Assembly: GCA_001244265.2 (NCBI GenBank)
Contig: CDLV01000011.1
Coordinates: 124,001 to 188,000, forward strand
Length of the DNA: 64,000 nt
Source: Microbotryum violaceum
Taxonomy: Eukaryota
Direction of reading: 5' to 3'
The notes beneath the pieces were generated by a model. It made no database searches. It was not told the DNA's origin and saw nothing but the letters and a program-made list of their open reading frames with translations. Positions 8,917 through 19,403 of this stretch are shown piece after piece (within the stretch, counting starts at the first letter, position 1; each line of letters begins with the position of its first letter). The position numbers and the translations under genes were made by a program.

Positions 8917-11255
8917 TTATCGCCTGTAAGCTCCGTGGTAACCTTCTCCCTCCTCACGATCAAAATCGTTCAGTCCCCCGTTGACGACACTCAATCGTCT
9001 CGTGGGTCCCCCATCACTTGGAACCGGTCGGGACCCCGTCCAACTCTCGTAACCAGGTAGACTCGTGAGCACCGTCCCACTCGTTCCATTCATCGAGCTC
9101 GCGCCGTCGAACGAGTCCTCATGACGATGCGAGAAGAAGGTTTGCTGTACGTTCGAATTAGTCGGCGTTCCCGATCGAACGATAGGGTAGGACAAGGACT
9201 GTGTATCGGATTCGTGTTCTTCCCTGACCAAAGATAAGCGTGGAGCTTGCTCGTCGCTAACACCTCCTGCTCCGTGCGAGGAGTATCCATTCAGTGCACC
9301 AGCATGAGGTTGGTCCGATCGGGTCGAATAGACCGAGCTGATCGAGCCTTGACGATCAAGACCTGCTGGTTGCCACACTTGACGATCGTTCGAAGGCGCG
9401 CGGTATGGTCCTGAACCGAACGCTCCTCCCGACTCTGAGCGCGATAATCCCGACATCGAGTTGGCATAGTCCAATCCTGTTCCTGCGGCCTGTCCGGTAG
9501 GGTACGCGATCGGGGGTGGCATCGAAGGCAAGACTTGACCCGGACCAAAATTGGGGGGAGCCATTATGTGGTGTTGCTGCTGGTGTTGCTGTTGGTACGC
9601 GACGTGTTGGATAAGGCCCGAAGGTGGCCGCGGTGTGCCGAACGTGCCGTTCCTGGCCAAGGTAGGCAGAGCAAGTGAACCTTGGCTTCCCATCGTGTTC
9701 GATCGATCGAGGTTTCCGTATTCGTTGATTTGCTGCATCTGCACAGCCCCCCCTGCAGCGTAGTAAGGATCCGGACTATGGTGTGCTTCGCTATACGCAT
9801 CCAGATCGTCCTCGAGCATGACCGAGCCACGACGGTATTCGTCACGCTCGAAAGGTGAGGGGTCGTCATTGTCACTGGAGCGACGTCGTCTTTTGAGGAC
9901 TTGAGCGACCAGAGCGGCGACGACGATGACGGCCAGCAACGAGCCCGCGACGATGCCTACGACCGCGCCTGTGGAGGGGCCAGAGGAGGAATTGCTCGAT
10001 TCGCTCGAAGCCAGGGTCCCGCTCGCGGTTGAGGTTTGGGATGCGGACACGACGACGACGGTCACGCTAGCTGATGGCAAGGCGGTCGTAGTGGACGAGG
10101 ACAAGGACGAAGAAAAAATAAAAGGGGTCGGGGTTGCTGATGCTGTCGTCGTTGTCTCCGCAGCCTCGTCCGTCGTTGCGTCCGCAGCCTCATCCGTCGT
10201 TGTGATACGTTCCGCCGTCGTGGTCACGGCTCGAGTTGTGGCGACAGGTGTAGTAGTGGCTACATTGACAACAGACGAGGTTCACGAGAATCAGCACAAC
10301 GGCACCAACGGACGCAGAGTCTGGATGCGCCCCAGGCCCAATCGATTCTACGCGTGGTGGCCCCTATTCCCGCTCCGGATCCATTGATGAGGCGGGGGCT
10401 AATGGAACATAGGCTACACCGGCCAAGCTCCATCCGCACTCAACTCCGAAGGAACCCGGAAAGTAAGGCAGCTCTTGGGAGCTTTCATCAATGGTCATAG
10501 ACGGCGTGCTCGTCCCGTCGGGACCGTCGACCATGACCACGACGCGTGCGTGCTCTGTGCGTAGGCGCGGCAGTCGGCAATTGTCGGACGAACGCAAGAG
10601 CTCGAACACAGACGCAGGAAACATCCTCGGTGCGACGGCAAGATAGCCATCCAGGCTCGAGGTTTTAAGAGATACTAGATGACCCCGCTAGCCTACACCC
10701 TGCGTGGCGTAGCTCGACATCGGCCGGTCGTCGCTGGCTTTTGGCGCCATGCGCTAGGCCGCGAGCACTTGCAAACAAACGACGGGTCGCTGAATCGCAT
10801 CGAAATTCCCCGATCGCGATTATCTTCGCACGCATGTAGTCGATAGAAGCAGTCGTGAAAGCAAATTCCCCCAAGTCGGTTTTCGGTGAAAGAGTATAAT
10901 TCCGAATCCCGAGAGTGAAAAGATGATGTTCTGATTGTTCAGAGCGAGTGAAAGACGACAACTTACTAGTAGTGGTGATCGGCACGATTGCGGACGTCGT
11001 CGCCGGAGTCTGGGAGGGAGTCGTCGATGGAGTGGTTGAAGGTGTCGTCGTCGGAACAAGGTTGGTTGTTGTACTGGCTCGTGGCGTAGGGGAGGCGACA
11101 GAAGCTGGTATAGTGGTGCCGGCTGGGGTCGTGGCATCGTCTCCTGCAGCATCGTCGCCCGAGCCCGGGTCCGACTCGTCGGTGTCGTTGTCGTCGAACT
11201 GTCGCTTGGCTTGTCGATGCAGACGAAGTCGGGCTGATTGGTCATTGTGTGTCAT
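8917..11255 (-). CDS. Ser/Thr-rich single-pass membrane protein (Mid2/Wsc-like architecture), 2 exons
   Basis: Exon 1 11255-10967 (MTHNDQSARLRLHRQAKRQ..., Thr-rich), intron GTAAGT...TGTAG, exon 2 10259-8917 in frame; TM segment GAVVGIVAGSLLAVIVVAALVA followed by KRRRR and a cytoplasmic tail. Confidence 0.8.
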
Positions 11256-12032
11256 GGTGGGCAAATTTATTATGTGGTGGAAAACTTCTGTGATCGAATC
11301 GGTCTGGTGGAGCTGTTGTCGATTACGGCAAGGCGGCCTTTGCGCGTCAATGCCGGCGTACGCGACTTTAGCGGCGTCGGGGACTACGCGTTGACCCAGC
11401 ACGGACTCCGACGACGACGACGAGGAGGACGTTGACTGAATGAAAGTCAGCCTTGCTAAACGAGAGGAGCCAGGGGAGCGGATGCCTGGGCGGGACGAGG
11501 GTCGAAGTCGGGGTGACGGTAGGGGAATGGAAGATTGAATGAACGGTAAACAGGGTCGGTCTGAAATGAGGAAGCGGGGGCAAAGTCCAGAAAACGAAAT
11601 GCAACGGGCGCACCTTGCAGAAACGACCCGGTGCTACGGCAGCGGGCGCGACGAGGCGCGCGCCCATTGTCGGCAGTCGGCATGACACACGCGACGACAT
11701 CATGAGCGACGGCTGACGTACGATTCAGACTTCTGTTGCTCTCGGCTGCTCACCGACAGAAAACTCCAAGTATGTGGCAAGGTCTGGTCACAAGGTACGC
11801 CATGATATTCACTGAGGAACACACTGCAGTGTGATGATAGGCGCATCGATACAGAATTCCTTCGGTTTACCATTCCGGCATCCGACCTGGTCGAATTATA
11901 CAGTTCTACTTTGATGTCCAGGGATATCTAGAGGGATTGTCGAGTAATACTTTATCAAAAACAGTTGGTAAGTTGCCCCGCTCGTAGACCCAACTCGGAG
12001 AACGGGGTCTTTTCCTTAATCTAATAGATTTC

Positions 12033-12420
12033 AACCAGTGGGAATCCGTTAAATTTACGGGAGGGTGAAATTCAAAGAGCAGAAGAATCGAACAATATAC
12101 ATGATTTCAGTATTTCAGCAGAGGCAGAAAGACGCAATACGAAGTACAGCAAGGAAACAGTTCTCCATTCATCGCCCAAACAGCCTGCCCGTTGCTTGTT
12201 GCCAAAAACGTCGTCGTCGCGTCGGTTCAATTTGGCTTCAAACACTCGTGCAATGAGATCCGGTCGGTTGCATGCTGGGTCGTTCGGCCCCAGTGCAGCC
12301 TTGATTTCCGGCCATCCGGGGTCGCACCTCACCGTGATGAACAGCGGAGACCTTCAATATTTGACAACGTACGCCATCGCATCCTGGTAACGCTGCGTGA
12401 TCCCGCGCGGTCTATTCTTG
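12033..12420 (-). repeat. Left arm of terminal inverted repeat; putative Helitron 3' end at 12035
   Basis: - strand ends CCGTAAATTTAACGG-ATTCCCA-CTGG|T; matches 16056-16440 in reverse orientation. Confidence 0.85.
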
Positions 12421-14600
12421 AACGTCAAGCCCGAAATCACCGAACGTCCAATCTGATCCGGGGTCAAGCCGTTGGCAACAGAGTCGGTGATGCTTTGGGC
12501 CGTAGTGAGGCGCAGGTTCTTCCTGGTTGCCAACCGGATGTAGTTGAGTCGAGCGGTCTTGATTTGGGAGTATCCGTCGATCACGAACTCGAAGAAGAGA
12601 CGCTGGGTTCAATGCGGGATTGAGAAGTAGTCGTCGCGATCGTGCGAGTAGTACGCAAATAATCGGGAACGCGACAGGTCGATCCACCTCGACCGCTTTT
12701 CGTTGACCTTCGTTATAGATATTCAAACATTCTATGTCAGTCTGTGCTTGCGTCTCAACAGAATGGAACATGTGAGAGAGAGCCGAAGACGCTTACCTTC
12801 ACCATCACCACTCTCTTCGTCCTCCTCGTCATCTTCATCTTCATCGCGCGGTCTTCGCCCTCCGCTTCGTCTTCTTCATCCGGACAAAGACAGGCAAGTA
12901 CCTCGCCCAAGTGGATACCATTGTCGATCTGCTCTCGGTGTCTGGCGATTGGCGGCCCAGTTTGGTTGAACCCGCAAAGAGGAATGTTGGGGTGGAAGCC
13001 ATCTTCACCTGCGGGGAAGAGTAGTGGCTACCGGAGAGGCATCCCAGACGGATGGAGCGAGCTAAAGATTTGGTACTTGGGCCGACCATCGGGACATCGA
13101 TTACCGTGCACCTGGGGAATAGGATCTTGCGGTCTACGATCTCCTGTGTTGGTGCCGTAATCGCAGATAAGCATCGCCATGTCTGCTCGACGTAGGAAGG
13201 TTGTGGTTGCGTCGGTCTCGGCCAGATGGTTGGCAGAGGCGCAGGACCCACTCTTTGGCCGATGCGAACACCCTCACAAAGCGGCTCGACACTGGGAGTG
13301 CGAAAGGTCCAAGTCGAACGGACACTTCAGCACGGGCTGCTCGCAGGGCAAGGTGTGGCTGCCTTCCCCTCCCCAACCCGATACCGAGTATCGATATCTA
13401 CTTGAAGGCTCGGATAGCGGTCAGTTGCTCCGTCCAACAACATTCGTTTGCTGCAGATCCACATGAACTGTGCGACCCACGCACACAGAAGCTAAAGCAT
13501 TCCGCGAGAATGCCCGGTCGTACAACAACGCGCTGTCGTTCACTTCGCTCGCTACTCACTTCGACCAGACACGACTGGGCACTCTGGGACCCCCCTTGTT
13601 TCGCGTGTTTGGTCGCCTCTATCATCGACTCGACGCCCTGATCCCTGCCGTGAATCAATGCCCAGCCTTTGCTCAGACATGGCTCATCGACCCGGCCGAG
13701 GCCAACGACTTTCGACCTGGACCCAACGGCGCACACAGTCGCATACAAAGATCTACTTTGACCAAGCTCGAGTCCATGTCGCGCACCGGAAATCGCTTTG
13801 TGAGGGAATTCGCATCGGCCAAAGCCCCCTACCACCTGGCCGAGACCGACGCAGCCACGGTACGCAACATGGACTCGAGCTTGGCCAAAGTAGACCTTTG
13901 TATGCGACTGTCTGCGCCGTTGGCCGTTGGGTCCAAGTCGAGTGTCGGTTGCCTCGGCCGGGTCGATGAGCCATGTTTGAGCAAATGCTGGGCGTTGGAT
14001 GACGGCAGCGATCAGGGCGCCAAGTGGATGGTAAAGGCGACCAAACACGCGAGACACGGGGGGTCCTAGCGTGCTCACTTGAGTTTGGTCCCAGCCCTGG
14101 CAGTGGGCAGCGAGCGAAGTGAAGGACAGCGCGTTGTCGTACGACTGAGCGTTCTCGCAGAACGCTTTAGCTTCTGTATGTGGGTTGCACAGTTCAGCAT
14201 GTGGATCTGCAGCAGACGAATGTTGTTGGACGGAGCAACTGACCGCTATTCGAGCCTTCAAGTAGCTGTCGATACTCTGATTGGGCCGGGGAGGGGGGAG
14301 GCAGGAGGAGGCAGGCGCACTTTGCCCTGCGAGCAGCCCGTGCTAAAGTGACCGGTCGACTTCGTCCTTTCGCACTTCCGGTGTCGAGCCTTGCAGTGGG
14401 TGCACACGGCCGTCTGCGGGCCGAGGCGGTCGGCGATTGAAACGTGGGGCTTGAGGGGTTTGAGGCCGGTTCTAGCCCTGCGGGGGCTCCGCTGGCCTTG
14501 ACCAGCTTGACCCGCAGCAGGAGGTGCACGTGGTGGTGGGGCGTGGGACGTTCAGCGCGAGCTTGCTTTAGGTGGCAACCGGCCACGAGCGGCGGCGTGT
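12170..14600 (-). pseudogene. Decayed, truncated Helitron Rep/helicase N-terminal region (intron-containing), interrupted by an inverted copy
   Basis: In order on the - strand: LGPQTAVCTHCKARH...FSTGCSQGKVRLP; AFCENAQSYDNALSFTSL; RVFGRLYH...PAFAQTWLID; RRNHNLPTSS; SLHPSGMPLR*PLLFPAGEDGFHPNIP; IDGYSQIKTARLNYIRL; QRYQDAMAYVVKY; CDPGWPEIKAALGPNDPACNRPDLIARVFEAKL. Stops and frameshifts present; no HUH or helicase motifs. Confidence 0.88.
13283..13858 (+). repeat. Inverted copy of a Helitron Rep segment
   Basis: Encodes FRENARSYNNALSFTSL...GPPLFRVFGRLYHRL...PAFAQTWLIDP...NRFVREFASAK; reverse-complement match to 13859-14390 and to 13203-13283. Confidence 0.9.
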
Positions 14601-14828
14601 GCCTCCACTGTGCCTCCCGCCTCCTCCTGCCTCCTCTTAGTAGCTCGCGTGCGCGTCCTGAACCCTTTGCTCGTGCTCAATCCCAACCCGTCCTGGTCTG
14701 TTCCACGCCTTCTCGTCCGTGCGGGTGTCGTTGTTCGATTTCTGACTTTCTGACTCGCTCATTGACCTTAGAGCGTCACTCCAGCCTGGCACTTGCCACT
14801 GCAGCCACCTCTCCGCACCAGCATAATC

Positions 14829-15802
14829 ATGCCCGAACCCTCCGCTCCAACCCGCTCCAAGGGCATCCCACTGCGAGTACTGATCAACCGAAGAGAGTGC
14901 TTCTTTCCCGACATGATGTTTCGCTTCTTCGAGTACGCGGGTCGCCGGCCGAAAGCCCGCTTTTACAAGGAAGCCGAGATCATCTGGCAGGCCGTCTCCG
15001 AGAAGACGTGGCGAGAGCTCGAGGCCTACAGCAAGGCACTCCTAGATTACTGCGTGGAGATTGAGACTCGACTTGAGCAACGTTCGGGCTGGAACATCTT
15101 TTCTCCACAGGTATGGGCGGCTCGGCTAGAGTTGATGAAGTTCTATTACGGGGAGCGTGGCCTCTGCAACGATTACTGGAAGGTCATCAGGTACTCTGGA
15201 TACGGTAAGTACTTCTGTGTGTATATGTTCTCGTGACCTCCGCGTTGTATCTGCTGCGGTAGTGTCTGACTCAGACTCGCCCTCGCCCCTGTTCACATTC
15301 GATCCTACGAGTCTTACACGCCCTCCGGGACAGATTCATCTCCGAATACAATGCTAAGCACCCCGAGCTCGACCCTCCTCTTCGACGATCCGACAATCTC
15401 ATTCTTCGCCTAGGATCGCTGCCGTCGTTTCGAAGCGATCGCGTGGCCTACTTCTCATTTCCCGATCCAAGGCCCAGTGGACCCTCTGGATTCCTCGAAG
15501 GCGAGCAGGAGCATCTCAAGAGTAGGTCTGGATTTTTACCCATCATCGCCCTGAAGGAAACATCGGACTAAACTCGTTGTGCGCCCTCACCGTGAACGTG
15601 TACATTCGCAGAACACGGTGGTATTGTTTTCGACGGTACGAGTACGGGCTTGCCTACCGACTTCGATGTGGTGGTTGATGCGAGGTCAAATTTCCTGCCG
15701 AAAGACGACGAGATCCTGGGGATCGCGGCTCTCCTCCCCGGTCCCGAGAGCGAGTCGCGCAAGACGGATAGCGAGCGGCTCGCCAGGTTCGAAGGCGACT
15801 GA
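14829..15802 (+). CDS. Orphan 3-exon gene inside the Helitron composite, 246 aa, unknown function
   Basis: Exons 14829-15190, 15334-15521, 15612-15802 (362+188+191=741 nt) join with GT-AG introns into an uninterrupted frame MPEPSAPTRSKGIPLRVL...KVIR|FISEYNAKHPEL...EHLK|KHGGIVFDG...RLARFEGD*. Confidence 0.75.
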
Positions 15803-16055
15803 CAATGACTGAAGGATGGATGCATTATTCGTACCCTACGTTTCTGTCAAGGCTGAATTCGTCACCACTAGCCCTCTGCTTCAGACGAATTCACTTCCTT
15901 CCGTCTCAAATACGACCACTTTATGTCCAATCGTTGTTGTCGTCAGAGCAGCAGTACACTGTAATCAATTCAGATGTCGGATCAGGGCTTGGTCTCCGCT
16001 CTAAGAGCTGTTCAACGCGGTCTACAGCTGCACAGCTGGCTACATAGAGGCGGCG

Positions 16056-16440
16056 CAAGAATAGACCGCGCGAGAACACGCAGCGCTACTAAAGGGGAGT
16101 CAGATGCGATGTGGCGTGCGTCGTCAAATATGGAAAGCCTTCGCGCCGTTCATCACGGTGAGGTGCGACCCCGAATGGCCGGAAATCAAGGCTGCACTGT
16201 GGCCAGACGATAAAGCATGCAACCGACCGGATCTCATTGCACGAATGTTTGAAGCCAAATTGAACCGACGCGACAACGACGTTTTTGGCAACAAGCAACG
16301 GGCAGGCTGTTTGGGCGATGAATGGAGAACTGTTTCCTTGCTGTACTTTGTAGTGTGTGTTCTTAAGCTCTGTTGAAATCATGTAGGCTGTTTGATTCTC
16401 CTCCTCTTTGTCACGTTAATTTAACGGGTTCCCACTGGTT
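16056..16440 (+). repeat. Right arm of terminal inverted repeat; putative Helitron 3' end at 16438
   Basis: Encodes FITVRCDPEWPEIKAALWPDDKACNRPDLIARMFEAKL...GCLG and ends CGTTAATTTAACG-GGTTCCCA-CTGG|T. Confidence 0.85.
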
Positions 16441-16610
16441 TTCTTTAAGAATCGTCATAACAGCATAATTGTATTGAGGCTAGCAATCTTCGTAATGAAC
16501 TCTCAAAAGTCACTTGAGTGAGCGGGTTTTACCTCGCTCTCGCGCCCGCCCTCGTCGTCCCGGCATCATCTTGACCAACTCGGCCGCCATCTACTTCAAT
16601 CCACGACAAC

Positions 16611-19403
16611 ATGAGTGGTCAGTCACCTCGACACCCTTGATTCAGACTGTGCACTGACGCCTAGCTCTGTTCCGAGGGTGTTGCAGACCGGTGCGTGCGA
16701 GCACGGAGCAGCACACGAGGCTTGGCAGAGCACGTGACGGTCACGGTGCATGCTGCATCCTAGACTGATGTATTACCTACTCGATGGGCCTCACAGACCA
16801 ACCCTTCGACACGAGGAAGGCCATTCGAATAGGCGGGAGGGTAGGTTCATCCACACGGCGTTCTACGAGCGCTGGGCAGGTCGACCGGGATGCTGACCTC
16901 ATCCCACCTCTTTACCAGAATACGATGATCGAGACGTAAGCTTTCTTTCTTTTTTTTTTGGTCGCGGCCAGGGTCACCGATGCGGTCCTCTTGTGCTTCG
17001 TGCTCAGCTGACCTGATCGTCCTCGCTCAAAAACACCGCTCCGGTCATGACCATGCCGATACCCATACCCTATTATCGCCCTGTCCCGTGTCCCGAACTG
17101 GCAACACGTTTTCCCCATTGCTCACGCTTGACGCTTGCCTCTTCGCCATCCCATCGGTTCCCCGCGGCCGACGATCGATACCATACAGCGATCGAGCCGC
17201 CACCGACGACGCTCCGAGTCGCGCTCGCCACCTCCAGCCCGTCGAAACCGATCCCGCTCCCGTTCGCCGCGTCGTTCGGCCTCCCCACCGCGCAAAATGG
17301 AAGTCGACCGTGCCGTCGACCCACCCAAGCGCGAGTTCCGCTCATCGCGCTACAACCCCGACCGCGACCACGGCTCGAGGGCAACCGGATCGACGCCCTA
17401 CGACCCTGTGAGGAAGGCAGCGGCGAGACAGACCGCCGCGATTGAAGCGAGCAAGCATTCCAAGAAGGAGAATAGGGTCTACATCACCAACCTCAGCTTC
17501 AACGTCAAGTGGAACGATTTGAAGGACTTTATGCGGGAGGGTCAGTGATTATCATTATTATTATTATGACTTTGGTTGTGCCTCAGTGGGGGAGGGGGTT
17601 AGCGCAAATCCTTTGGGGACGACACCACTCTTTTGGAGCCCCTGCTTGGCGCAGTGGGGCCGGACTGGGACGCGCCGGACAGGCCTAGACACGGTTGGAA
17701 GGGGATCATGAAAGAAGAAAGGCTGATTATGGTCGTACTTTTTTGCTGGGTGTGCGCGCACGTATGGGATGGTCATGGGTGGGGTGATGGAAAACCCGCG
17801 TCAAATCTTGGACGACTTTTACGGCTATCGACTTCCTTCGCCATCTTGTATCGCCAACACGCCTCGCATCACACCAACAGCTGGAAACGTTGTCTTTTCC
17901 GAAATTATGACTCTCCCTAACGGCATGTCGAAAGGATGCGGGTCAGTCTCTTTTCGTTGCTCTTCCGTGCACCGAACTGCGCAATTGACTCAACTACGAA
18001 CGCTGTTACCGATCTATCCAGTGTGGTCGAATTCTCACGACCTGAAGAGGCACAACGTGCGATTAGTCAACTCAACGAACAGCCTTTGTTGGGACGACCC
18101 GTCTACGTGCGCGAGGTGGGTGATCGTCGCAGGCCACTCACGTCACGTCGAGCGGAGATTAACCCCCGAGATTCTCACACTCACAGGACCGAGAAGAAGA
18201 GGCGCGATACGGCTCAGCGGCCGTCTCAGGACCCCGACCTGGGTATACCGGACCCGGTGCGCTCACCGCTCCTACCCGAGGTGGTTTCTCCGCCGGTGTC
18301 GGTCGAGGAGGCGGATTCGCTTCCTCCGCCCCTGCACCAGGTCAAGGACGACATCTCTTCATCCAAGGCCTTCCTGCGAATGCGGGTTGGCAAGAGTTGA
18401 AGGATCTTTTCCGTGCTGCGGGTCAGATCATTCGTGCGGATGTCAAGACTGCTCCTGATGGGACCCCCACGGGTACCGGTACGGTTGTCTTTGAGACGAG
18501 CCAGGATGCTCAGAATGCGATTGGTCAGTGTTGGCCTCGGACCAGCTACTCTGTGATAAGTTGCTGAACCCAGGTCATCGATCTCCTCCAGCGATGTACA
18601 ACGGCTACGAAATCGACGGGGCGATCCTCGAAGTACGTGAAGACCGATTCCCGACCGGGGGTGGCGGAGGTGGCTTCGTACCCCGAGGTGGATTCGCCGG
18701 AGGTCGAGGCGGTTTCCGAGGTGGTTTCAACGGTGGTTTCGGCGCGCCGCCCCCTCACCTTCCTTTCGCTCCTCCTGGGTTCATGCAAGGTGGTTTCAAA
18801 CCGCTTGTGGCTACGCCGAACAAGCAAATTTTCGTTAGGAATGTGAGTCTCGCCCACGCGCGCGCACCCCTCGACTGTGCCAAATCGACAAGAGAGCTGA
18901 CGTCTCCTTCGGCTTATTGGCCTGTAGTTACCTTGGTCTACTGCGGATGAAGATCTGGTCGAATTGTTCCAGACGACGGGAACGGTCGAGGAAGCGGCGA
19001 TGCTTATCGATGAAGCGACCGGTCGAGCCAAAGGATCAGGCGTGGTTCAATTCGCAACGATCGAAGAGGCCCAAACGGCGATCGCTCAGTTCCAGGGTTA
19101 TACCTATGGAGGTCAGTAGTCGGTTCCTAAACTTTTCCTTGATTTCGGGTGGGGCGTGACTCATCCTCTTTTTTGCATTCTTTCCCTACGATTTTTGCCA
19201 AAGGTCGCCCTCTACAAATCGAATTCAACGCGAGGTACAAGAACTTTCAAGGGAGTGGTGTACCCGCGGGTGCACCGACCGGTCCTCGTGGGCATCAAGA
19301 GGCGGATCAGGAGAGGGTTAATAACGGCGAGTACGGTGATGGCAGTGCTGATGCGAGTCATGGGAATAGGGAAGGGAGGGAACCTTTGCCCGAGGGGTTT
19401 TGA
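16611..19403 (+). CDS. SR/RGG-containing three-RRM RNA-binding protein (Gbp2/Hrb1-like), multi-exon
   Basis: RS-rich N-terminus; RRM1 RVYITNLSFNVKWNDLKDFMRE-AGNVVFSEIM...SKGCG-VVEFSRPEEAQRAI; RRM2 LFIQGLPANAGWQELKDLFRAAG; RGG box; RRM3 QIFVRN-LPWSTADEDLVELFQTTG; 5' micro-exons of 7, 4, 44 and 17 nt splice in frame. Confidence 0.88.

What the first reader, a model, noticed from the sequence alone, without database searches (positions are those of the whole stretch)
12035..16438. Two-tailed Helitron composite: outward-facing 3' termini form long inverted repeats around a cargo gene
Seen: 12033-12420 and 16056-16440 are inverted copies (roughly 80% identical by eye). Similarity stops at the same point in both: a hairpin (consensus CCGTTAATTTAACGG), about 11 nt, CTGG, then T. 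Known: canonical Helitrons have one 5'-TC end and one 3' end with hairpin + CTRR, insert between A and T, and lack long TIRs. Inference: a unit with two 3' ends pointing outward could be a rolling-circle fold-back product that moves as a TIR-like cassette, or two sister elements inserted head to head. Caveat: the hairpin is shorter and more AT-rich than textbook examples, and no 5'-TC end was located.
Basis: partly seen in the sequence, partly recalled or inferred. Interest (0 to 1): 0.85.

Follow-up and report, generated by a model that had tools for sequence, protein, structure and literature searches.

The report
Decayed Helitron copies flanking a resident gene
The long inverted repeats are the tail ends of two decayed copies of a common anther-smut fungus Helitron transposon that sit in opposite orientation on either side of an ordinary resident gene, so this looks like ordinary transposon debris and not a new kind of mobile cassette.

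Summary
The inverted repeat is real: 12033-12420 and 16056-16440 match in 332 of 403 aligned columns (E 1e-114). Both stop at the same ...CCCACTGG+TT end.

The arms are Helitron-derived. Each encodes, reading outward, a fragment of the Rep domain (Pfam Helitron_like_N) followed by a short tail. That same Rep-to-tail junction ends 40 of 49 motif-bearing Microbotryum proteins. The arms are therefore the 3' end of an abundant, non-autonomous, internally deleted Helitron family.

The "composite with cargo" reading is not supported:
- **Left arm.** It is the end of a near-complete, stop-ridden copy on the minus strand (12033 to about 14560). That copy also carries its own 575-bp inverted internal duplication.
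- **Right arm.** It is a 385-bp 5'-truncated fragment.
- **"Cargo".** It is gene MVLG_02646 (100% identity). In M. saponariae its orthologue has a locus tag consecutive with that of the orthologue of the gene to the right.
- **Copy number.** The arms are roughly 50-600x and the interior 1-4x.
- **5' end.** No plus-oriented Helitron 5' end exists in the window.

Not settled: the exact termini, whether the right arm arose by independent insertion or local duplication, and the location of a diverged paralogue of the gene. Interest is low.

The parts
12033..12420 (-). Left arm: the last 388 bp of Helitron copy A. It holds a Rep (Helitron_like_N) coding fragment, the deletion junction, a tail of roughly 150 nt and the 3' terminus.
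   Evidence: Searches show the inverted match. PF14214, profile positions 118-175 of 191, E 1e-5. Searches show the same junction and tail as in P0008, P0010 and P0005.
12033..14560 (-). Helitron copy A: a non-autonomous, internally deleted, degenerate copy. The 5' limit is approximate (between about 14470 and 14650) and no 5' TC end was located.
   Evidence: tblastn places P0005 residues 18-467 in order on the minus strand, at 14449->14375, 14120->13859, 13298->12881 and 12677->12135, in shifting frames; two in-frame stops in 12135-12650; summed depth 27,000-140,000 over 12088-14451 against about 220 in the flanks, falling to 1161 in 14452-14648.
13284..13858 (+). Inverted internal duplicate of copy A's own N-terminal coding segment, inserted at the homologous point. 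It forms the left arm and the 69-nt loop of the inner palindrome.
   Evidence: 13283-14390 is self-complementary, 79% over 1158 columns. P0008 residues 6-124 lie on the plus strand at 13275->13799. One search gives the junction alignments; the arms match in 441 of 536 columns.
13859..14390 (-). Right arm of the inner palindrome. This is copy A's original N-terminal coding segment (CxxC region through FAQTWLIDPAEA).
14829..15802 (+). Resident host gene (the supposed cargo): hypothetical protein MVLG_02646, with no Pfam domain.
   Evidence: 100% identity to P0088; exons at 14829-15206 and 15410-15799; no Pfam hit; the M. saponariae orthologue g08941 has a locus tag consecutive with g08940, the orthologue of the RRM gene.
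16056..16440 (+). Right arm: a 385-bp 5'-truncated fragment of the same family. It begins in mid Rep domain and holds the junction, the tail and the 3' terminus.
   Evidence: PF14214, profile positions 115-175, E 7.9e-9. P0010 residues 349-449, which reach that protein's last residue, map to 16057->16373.
12035..12038 (-). CTGG (a CTRR-type 3' end) of copy A, followed in element sense by TT.
16435..16438 (+). CTGG (a CTRR-type 3' end) of the right fragment, followed by TT.
12046..12060 (-). Weak subterminal hairpin with a 4-bp stem.
   Evidence: -2.5 kcal/mol, z -0.13.
16412..16428 (+). Weak subterminal hairpin with a 5-bp stem plus one outer pair.
   Evidence: -3.2 kcal/mol, z -0.85.

Best explanation
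The region is transposon debris around a resident gene in a Microbotryum (anther-smut) genome. It holds two members of one abundant non-autonomous Helitron family. In this family the Rep domain is cut off after the motif GNKQRAGC(L/F)G and joined to a tail of roughly 150 nt that ends ...hairpin...CTGG. The two members lie in opposite orientation on either side of gene MVLG_02646. Copy A (minus strand, 12033 to about 14560) is nearly full length for the family. It is riddled with stops and frameshifts, and it has suffered a local fold-back type inverted duplication of 575 bp (13284-13858). The right member (plus strand, 16056-16440) is a 5'-truncated solo 3' end. Because the two 3' ends point away from each other, they read as long inverted repeats. 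Shown here: the Helitron origin of the arms, the family-wide junction, the anatomy of the region, the copy-number contrast, the identity of the gene, and its orthologue's consecutive locus tag with the neighbour's orthologue in M. saponariae. Inferred: the right fragment arrived by its own transposition and was truncated later or on arrival; CTGG|T is the true family terminus; and the unit as a whole has never moved and cannot move, because it has no 5' end on either outward-reading strand.
For: Pfam Helitron_like_N is found in both arms, reading outward. There are 86 protein hits among 469 candidates. All but one come from Microbotryum species, the best is 80% identical, and 9 of the 86 carry the PIF1 helicase domain. 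Of the 49 hits that hold the junction motif, 40 switch directly to the DEW/DEC tail seen in both arms and 9 continue as intact Rep, VVLTHTHVIEYQKRGLPHAH. tblastn places one ordered copy on the minus strand, an inverted piece and the right fragment, and finds no other Helitron piece in the 64 kb window. At the junctions, A[..p] at 13859 abuts the reverse complement of E[x0..p+69], and A resumes at p+6 at 13283. The gene is 100% identical to MVLG_02646. Its M. saponariae orthologue is Chr6-3g08941, and the right neighbour's orthologue is Chr6-3g08940. Summed contig depth in run X15 is 224 in the flanks, 27,000-140,000 over 12088-14451, 241-957 over 14649-16027, 12,000-19,000 over 16028-16421 and 219 beyond 16619; the other three runs show the same pattern. 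Contigs that run from flank into arm are listed for both sides in X15, X7 and X11, and for the right side in X14. The Helraiser experiments showed that deleting the 5' terminal sequence abolishes transposition, while deleting the 3' terminal sequence only lowers it (PMC4778049, passages read). [quoted passage not shown]
Against: The exact termini rest on only two copies, plus a depth step resolved to 197-nt bins. No other copy with its flanks could be read, because no whole genome is held. The depth bin 16422-16618 is raised (4113 against 219 in X15, and likewise in all four runs), which could mean that repeated sequence runs past CTGG on the right. The gene region has at least one diverged second copy in the same runs: X15 records 18 and 19, and X7 record 26. 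Its flanks are unknown. At 3 of the 8 best-supported family-versus-window differences inside the arms, both arms share the non-family letter. Arm divergence at ungapped sites (10.3%) is similar to that of the inner palindrome (12.3%), which fits a single local rearrangement about as well as two events. In M. intermedium the two orthologues are on one contig but not adjacent (BQ2448_5391 and BQ2448_5042). The 5' end of copy A was not found.
Confidence: 0.6

Rival explanations
1. Local rearrangement. There was only one Helitron insertion, copy A. Both the inner inverted duplicate (13284-13858) and the right arm (16056-16440) were copied from it in inverted orientation by replication template switching or break repair, perhaps in a single complex event. 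The unit is still not mobile.
For: The two inverted pairs are about equally diverged: 10.3% and 12.3% at ungapped sites, with transition:transversion ratios of 26:12 and 40:22. The arms share the non-family letter at 3 of 8 informative sites. The inner duplicate has the geometry of a fold-back: its end lies only 69 nt from the homologous insertion point.
Against: A local segmental copy would have to end exactly at the element's last base, yet similarity stops at CTGGTT in both arms and includes none of the left flank. That point also carries the canonical CTRR+T signature. The right arm lies 1.67 kb beyond copy A's 5' region, with a resident gene in between.
Confidence: 0.2
2. Head-to-head pair in which the right member is a gene-carrying Helitron. 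On this reading a plus-strand element runs from about 14650 to 16440, has captured MVLG_02646 and ends in the right arm.
For: Helitrons do capture genes; a fungal example, ToxB-HLE, is described in 10.1101/2025.11.13.688278 (abstract and outline read). The gene region has a second diverged copy, and depth over 14649-15830 is 2-4x.
Against: No plus-oriented copy of the family's 5' region exists anywhere in the window. The stretch 15831-16027, between the gene and the right arm, is 1.1x in X15 and X11 and 0.9x in X14, so the proposed element is not repeated as a whole. The gene's M. saponariae orthologue has a locus tag consecutive with the RRM gene's orthologue. Only one homologue per species was found among proteins of 80-258 aa: 3 hits among 16 candidates.
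Confidence: 0.07
3. A two-tailed fold-back product of rolling-circle transposition, bounded by two outward 3' ends, moves as a TIR-like cassette and carries the gene.
For: Two outward 3' ends are really present. The same 3 bp, TTC, lie directly outside both ends. The gene has a diverged second copy somewhere in the genome.
Against: The interior is not symmetrical about the arms. The inner palindrome is centred near 13836, while the arms are centred near 14236. The arms are roughly 50-600x and the interior 1-4x. The locus-tag adjacency argues that the gene is resident. The unit has no 5' end, which is essential in the tested Helitron (PMC4778049). A 3-bp flank match has a chance of about 1 in 64 per register and is weak evidence. 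No joint skipping 12033-16440 is among the 15 of 66 joints shown.
Confidence: 0.04

Closest known systems
Non-autonomous (internally deleted) canonical Helitrons, Helitron1 type, with a 5'-TC...hairpin...CTRR-3' structure inserted at AT
   Same: The arms carry coding sequence derived from RepHel. The 3' end reads CTGG, followed by T, with a small palindrome 6-8 nt upstream. The family is multi-copy. The helicase and most of Rep are lost.
   Different: The hairpin is very weak. The 5' TC end was not located. Termini were not confirmed on further copies. Whether the Microbotryum RepHel groups with Helitron1 or Helitron2 was not tested.
Helitron content of Microbotryum lychnidis-dioicae (Perlin et al. 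2015, PMC4469406; passages read)
   Same: [quoted passage not shown] This locus fits that picture.
   Different: The passages I read do not describe the Rep-truncated family, its termini or this locus. Supplementary files were not seen.
5'-truncated Helitron copies and Helitrons adjoining other Helitrons in bats (Grabundzija et al. 2016, PMC4778049; passages read)
   Same: Those authors describe pre-existing 5'-truncated copies and neighbouring Helitrons as ordinary outcomes. They show that the 5' terminal sequence is essential and that the 3' hairpin acts as a termination signal.
   Different: Those cases are head-to-tail or adjoining arrangements that create new 3' ends. Here the two 3' ends face outward and nothing indicates that they are used together.
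Helitron2 / FoHeli elements of Fusarium with asymmetric terminal inverted repeats (Chellapan et al. 2016, PMC5148889; passages read)
   Same: They are fungal Helitrons with short inverted repeats between the 5' end and a site 20-40 bp from the 3' end.
   Different: Those repeats are 12-16 bp and lie within one element, not 390-bp arms. Here only one 10-mer inverted match was found (12086-12095 against 14731-14740; 8 of 500 shuffles do as well). It lies outside the high-copy part of copy A.
Gene-carrying fungal Helitron-like element ToxB-HLE (10.1101/2025.11.13.688278; abstract and outline read)
   Same: It is a fungal gene associated with Helitron-like ends.
   Different: There the gene is amplified together with the element. 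Here the gene is low-copy and its orthologue keeps a consecutive locus tag with the neighbour's orthologue in a related species.

Membership tests
Helitron (any type) | Coding sequence derived from the RepHel transposase | tested here: met
   PF14214 is found in both arms and in copy A. The best hit is 80% identical to the 1584-aa RepHel protein P0002, which carries PF14214 and PF05970. tblastn gives an ordered map.
Helitron (any type) | Multi-copy family in the genome | tested here: met
   Summed contig depth over the arms and copy A is roughly 50-600 times the flank depth in all 4 runs laid. Dozens of related gene models exist in sister species.
Canonical Helitron (Helitron1) | 3' end CTRR followed by a host T | tested here: met
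   Both copies end CTGG followed by T, in fact TT, and then unlike flanks. This rests on only two copies.
Canonical Helitron (Helitron1) | Hairpin about 10-12 nt before the 3' end | tested here: inconclusive
   A 4-5 bp AT-rich stem lies 6-8 nt before CTGG. It folds at -2.5 and -3.2 kcal/mol, no better than shuffles.
Canonical Helitron (Helitron1) | 5' end TC after a host A | tested here: inconclusive
   Copy A's 5' limit lies between about 14470 and 14650 by protein similarity and depth. No terminus could be defined without further copies.
Canonical Helitron (Helitron1) | Other copies end at the same nucleotide; an empty site confirms the ends | not testable with these tools
   No whole genome is held. 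Two metagenome scans found 0 matches. Contig tables give no flanks of other copies.
Autonomous Helitron | Intact Rep (HUH and two tyrosines) plus a PIF1-type helicase | tested here: not met
   The Rep match stops at profile position 175 of 191, there is no helicase, and stops and frameshifts are present.
Helitron2 / Helentron | Asymmetric terminal inverted repeat between the 5' end and a subterminal 3' site | tested here: inconclusive
   Only one 10-mer was found, and 8 of 500 shuffles do as well. The 5' end is unknown.
Mobile two-ended (TIR-like) composite | Interior amplified together with the arms; same layout at other loci | tested here: not met
   The interior at 14649-16027 is 1-4x and the arms roughly 50-600x. 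No second copy of any part exists in the window. Other loci could not be inspected.
Mobile two-ended (TIR-like) composite | Target-site duplication and an empty-site allele | tested here: inconclusive
   TTC lies outside both ends, a chance of about 1 in 64 per register. No skipping joint is among the 15 of 66 joints shown, and flank-to-arm contigs are present in all 4 runs on at least one side.
Helitron gene capture | Captured gene lies between a 5' and a 3' end of the same orientation | tested here: not met
   There is no plus-oriented family 5' region in the window. The gene's orthologue has a locus tag consecutive with its neighbour's orthologue in M. saponariae.

The most novel reading that the evidence does not exclude
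The 575-bp fold-back duplicate inside copy A and the outward-facing second 3' end could both be products of strand switching by the Helitron replication machinery itself. On this reading a rolling-circle copy turned back on its template, so Helitrons in this fungus would now and then generate palindromic, two-tailed derivatives. Such derivatives could place resident genes between long inverted repeats, where they might form hairpin RNA or undergo inversion.
Probability: 0.07. Interest if true: 0.5.

Novelty: new member of a known kind. Interest (0 to 1): 0.15.

Why it matters
It matters little beyond annotation. It shows that a striking 390-bp inverted repeat around a gene can be explained by two decayed Helitron copies of an abundant Rep-truncated family. 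It also gives a recognisable signature of that family: the junction GNKQRAGC(L/F)G followed by a DEW/DEC tail, ending CTGG. That signature could help to mask the many spurious "genes" of 370-530 aa in Microbotryum annotations. Inverted repeats of 82% identity that flank a gene could in principle promote inversion or read-through hairpin RNA. Neither possibility was tested here.

Tried and rejected
1. Whole-genome search for other copies was not possible because no genome is held.
3. Cluster members and locus tags for more synteny points, including the left neighbour, could not be obtained because the database was switched off. Synteny therefore rests on one adjacent pair of locus tags in one species.
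4. Two exact-pattern scans of metagenome contigs found 0 matches. One used a 30-nt core of the tail and the other a 26-nt degenerate terminus.
5. Laying contigs of four runs gave no listed loose ends at 12033 or 16440 and no listed empty-site joint. Only 24 of 498 loose ends and 15 of 66 joints were shown, and contigs break at repeats, so this is not evidence of absence.
6. A CACTA or other TIR-transposon reading of the arms was rejected. The arms are Helitron Rep coding sequence, no DDE transposase lies inside, and the CAGTG at the left end is in the wrong orientation for a CACTA end.
7. RIP-like hypermutation as the main source of arm divergence was rejected. Only 5 of 26 and 6 of 40 transitions are in TCG context, and CpG observed/expected is 1.0-1.2.
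8. I tried to explain the interlocked layout by a single inversion between two clean copies. No single inversion restores two intact copies (reasoning).
9. The gene model P0084 reads ...AVLRIV NPTGD... before a Copia-type polyprotein. This might be a third terminus junction, but an annotated intron cannot be excluded, so I did not use it.
10. The hairpin as a significant structure is not supported by folding energy.
Full report
**Observation.** The reported inverted repeat exists. blastn of 11001-17500 against the window pairs 12033-12420 with 16440-16056 at 82.3% identity over 402 columns, E 1.2e-114. A global alignment gives 332 of 403 identical columns, 38 mismatches (26 transitions, 12 transversions) and 33 gap columns. 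The core of 218 nt is 94% complementary. Read in element sense, both arms end ...CCCACTGGTT, after which the flanks are unlike. The 26-nt terminal motif occurs only at these two places in the window, with none expected by chance.

The hairpin is much weaker than the finding implies. It is a 4-5 bp AT-rich stem, 6-8 nt before CTGG. It folds at -2.5 and -3.2 kcal/mol, and 76 and 46 of 200 shuffles fold at least as well.

**What the arms are.** Both arms encode a fragment of Pfam Helitron_like_N (PF14214), reading outward. The left arm does so on the minus strand (12332->12072, profile positions 118-175 of 191, E 1e-5). The right arm does so on the plus strand (16104->16376, profile positions 115-175, E 7.9e-9). 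The left copy continues upstream at 12584->12354 (profile positions 30-109).

I read 12135-12650 on the minus strand through its two TGA stops as X and searched the protein collection with it. That gave 86 hits among 469 candidates. All but one come from Microbotryum species, and the best is 80% identical. Nine carry the PIF1-type helicase domain, among them P0002, a 1584-aa RepHel.

Of the 86 hits, 49 hold the motif GNKQRAGC(L/F)G or a close variant. In 9 of those the Rep domain goes on (VVLTHTHVIEYQKRGLPHAH...). In 40 it switches at once to a short tail (DEWRTVSLLYF.../DECRMNGF...), and 38 of those 40 end within 45 residues. Both window arms have exactly this junction and tail.

The arms are therefore the 3' portion of an abundant, internally deleted, non-autonomous Helitron family. 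The family is shared by M. silenes-dioicae and M. saponariae, going by the names the sources give to the hits.

**Anatomy of 12033-16440.** tblastn with five of these proteins finds Helitron pieces only in this cluster within the 64 kb window. On the minus strand, P0005 residues 18-42, 30-111, 109-257 and 296-467 map in order to 14449->14375, 14120->13859, 13298->12881 and 12677->12135, in shifting frames. This is copy A, near-complete for the family but degenerate.

Between 13859 and 13283 lies a plus-oriented copy of the same N-terminal segment (P0008 residues 6-124 at 13275->13799). Alignment of the junctions shows that copy A reads up to an element position p at 13859. It then meets the reverse complement of element positions x0..p+69 (13858 down to 13284), and resumes at about p+6 at 13283.

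Copy A is thus intact apart from an inverted duplicate of its own sequence, inserted at the homologous point with a 69-nt spacer. That geometry is what a fold-back or template-switch event would give. The mechanism is my inference and is not shown. The arms of this inner palindrome match in 441 of 536 columns.

The right arm covers only P0010 residues 349-449, reaching that protein's last residue, at 16057->16373. It starts abruptly in mid Rep domain, so it is a 5'-truncated solo 3' end.

**The "cargo".** The ORF at 14793-15233 is 100% identical to the protein named MVLG_02646 of Microbotryum lychnidis-dioicae p1A1 Lamole. It is 87% identical to BZ3500_MvSof-1268-A1-R1_Chr6-3g08941 of M. saponariae and 47% identical to BQ2448_5391 of M. 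intermedium. These are the 3 hits among 16 candidates of 80-258 aa. Its exons map to 14829-15206 and 15410-15799, and it has no Pfam domain.

The next gene to the right encodes an RRM protein at 17297-19400. Its best hit is M. saponariae Chr6-3g08940, at 98% identity. The two orthologues therefore carry consecutive locus tags on one contig in M. saponariae. This argues that the gene is at home here and was not carried in. In M. intermedium the two orthologues are on one contig but far apart (BQ2448_5391 and BQ2448_5042), so the adjacency is not shown for the deepest comparison.

**Copy number and presence in other runs.** Twenty coded DNA-type runs from 6 studies hold the stretch or a part of it. 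I laid the contigs of four of them (X15, X7, X11, X14; organism labels A, B, C, C) on 11300-17200 at 80% likeness. Summed depth in X15 was:

| Window coordinates | Summed depth in X15 |
|---|---|
| 11300-11890 | 224 |
| 12088-14451 | 27,000-140,000 |
| 14452-14648 | 1161 |
| 14649-16027 | 241-957 |
| 16028-16421 | 12,000-19,000 |
| 16422-16618 | 4113 |
| from 16619 | 219 |

The other three runs show the same pattern. Copy A and the right arm are therefore high-copy, while the gene region is 1-4x.

Long single-copy contigs run from the flank into the arm on both sides in X15 (to 12167 and from 16319, 0 differences), in X7 (0 differences) and in X11. In X14 this is seen on the right side only. 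No joint that skips the unit is among the 15 of 66 joints listed.

Several listed joints are what ordinary, non-palindromic family copies would give when laid on this locus. Examples are a skip of 692 nt from 13249 to 13942, and "opposite strands" joints at 13261/13791 and 12252/16142. A loose end at 13283 in X14 (TGTGCACCCACTGCAA) is the normal family sequence upstream of the inverted piece's start. Together these mark 13283/13284 as a breakpoint specific to this locus.

**Points against, or left open.**
- The bin 16422-16618 is raised in all four runs. One very deep contig covering the last 19 nt could explain this, but so could repeated sequence beyond CTGG. One X15 joint (12192 / 16447, opposite strands, 34 letters on the short side) is ambiguous in the same way.
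- The gene region has a second, diverged contig copy: X15 records 18 and 19, with 45 and 52 differing letters in 442 and 361 nt, and X7 record 26. Its flanks are unknown. The stretch 15831-16027, between the gene and the right arm, is 1.1x in X15 and X11 and 0.9x in X14, but 1.8x in X7.
- At 3 of the 8 best-supported sites where the other contigs differ from the window inside the arms, both arms share the non-family letter. At the other 5 sites, one arm has the family letter. The arms are therefore close relatives within the family.
- The arms and the inner palindrome are about equally diverged, at 10.3% and 12.3% of ungapped sites.
- Divergence is not dominated by the TCG-context transitions described for this genus. 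Only 5 of 26 and 6 of 40 transitions are in that context, and CpG observed/expected is 1.0-1.2 (background from PMC4469406, passages read).

**Most likely explanation.** Two members of one non-autonomous Helitron family lie in opposite orientation around a resident gene. One is a nearly complete but decayed copy with a local inverted duplication. The other is a 5'-truncated 3' end. Their outward-pointing 3' ends make the long inverted repeat.

I put this reading at 0.6, including the inferred step that the right fragment came from its own insertion. The main support for that step is that similarity stops at the very base that carries the CTRR+T signature and includes none of the other arm's flank.

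A purely local origin of the right arm from copy A is the main rival (0.2). A gene-carrying plus-strand Helitron (0.07) lacks any 5' end in the window. The same TTC outside both ends is too short to count for much.

**Comparison with what is known.** The locus has the features of a canonical-type Helitron 3' end: CTRR followed by T, with a subterminal palindrome. The definition is taken from PMC5148889 (passages read). The hairpin is marginal, the 5' TC end was not found, and no further copy could be aligned, so membership of the Helitron1 type as opposed to the Helitron2 type is not settled. The only hint of an asymmetric terminal inverted repeat is a single 10-mer, and 8 of 500 shuffles do as well.

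[quoted passage not shown] Truncated and adjoining Helitron copies are known from bats (PMC4778049). I searched the paper library for head-to-head, inverted or truncated Helitron arrangements and for Microbotryum Helitrons. I saw no description of this Rep-truncated family or of two-tailed Helitron units in the listings. I read only passages of four papers, plus one abstract and outline, and no supplements, so REPET consensus tables in supplements may already hold the family.

**Verdict.** The feature is real but ordinary: decayed Helitron copies flanking a resident gene. It is a new member of a known kind, and interest is 0.15. The one mildly unusual item is the fold-back duplicate inside copy A.

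Noticed in passing
window 13283-14390: There is a non-concentric inner palindrome. It has arms of about 505-530 bp that match in 441 of 536 columns, and a 69-nt loop. It was made by an inverted duplicate of copy A's own N-terminal coding segment, inserted at the homologous position.
   Followed up: yes
window 14868-15730: The gene region (MVLG_02646) has a second, diverged contig copy at single-copy depth in runs X15 and X7, about 85-88% alike. Summed depth over 14649-15830 is 2-4x. The paralogue's location and flanks are unknown.
   Followed up: partly
window 16422-16618: Summed contig depth is raised in all four runs (for example 4113 against 219 in X15) just outside the right arm's CTGG end. 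One X15 joint (12192 / 16447, opposite strands) touches this flank. It could be one very deep terminal contig, or repeated sequence beyond the presumed terminus.
   Followed up: no
window 12030-12032 and 16441-16443: The same three bases, TTC, lie directly outside both outward ends. This is probably chance, at about 1 in 64 per register.
   Followed up: partly
window 12086-12095 and 14731-14740: A 10-nt inverted match (AATCGAACAA) links copy A's subterminal 3' region with a site upstream of its recognisable 5' part. Only 8 of 500 shuffles do as well. The site lies in low-copy sequence and the motif is not conserved in the right arm.
   Followed up: partly
proteins P0012, P0057, P0066, P0084: Some gene models in related Microbotryum annotations fuse Helitron_like_N fragments with host or other transposon domains (SFT2, Copia reverse transcriptase or integrase, xylose-isomerase-like). 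Dozens of 'genes' of 370-530 aa are decayed copies of this Helitron family.
   Followed up: no
window 8917-11402 (-) and 17297-19400 (+): The flanking host genes are a Ser/Thr-rich ORF set on the left and, on the right, an intron-containing RRM-domain gene. The RRM gene is 98% identical over its first exon to M. saponariae g08940.
   Followed up: partly
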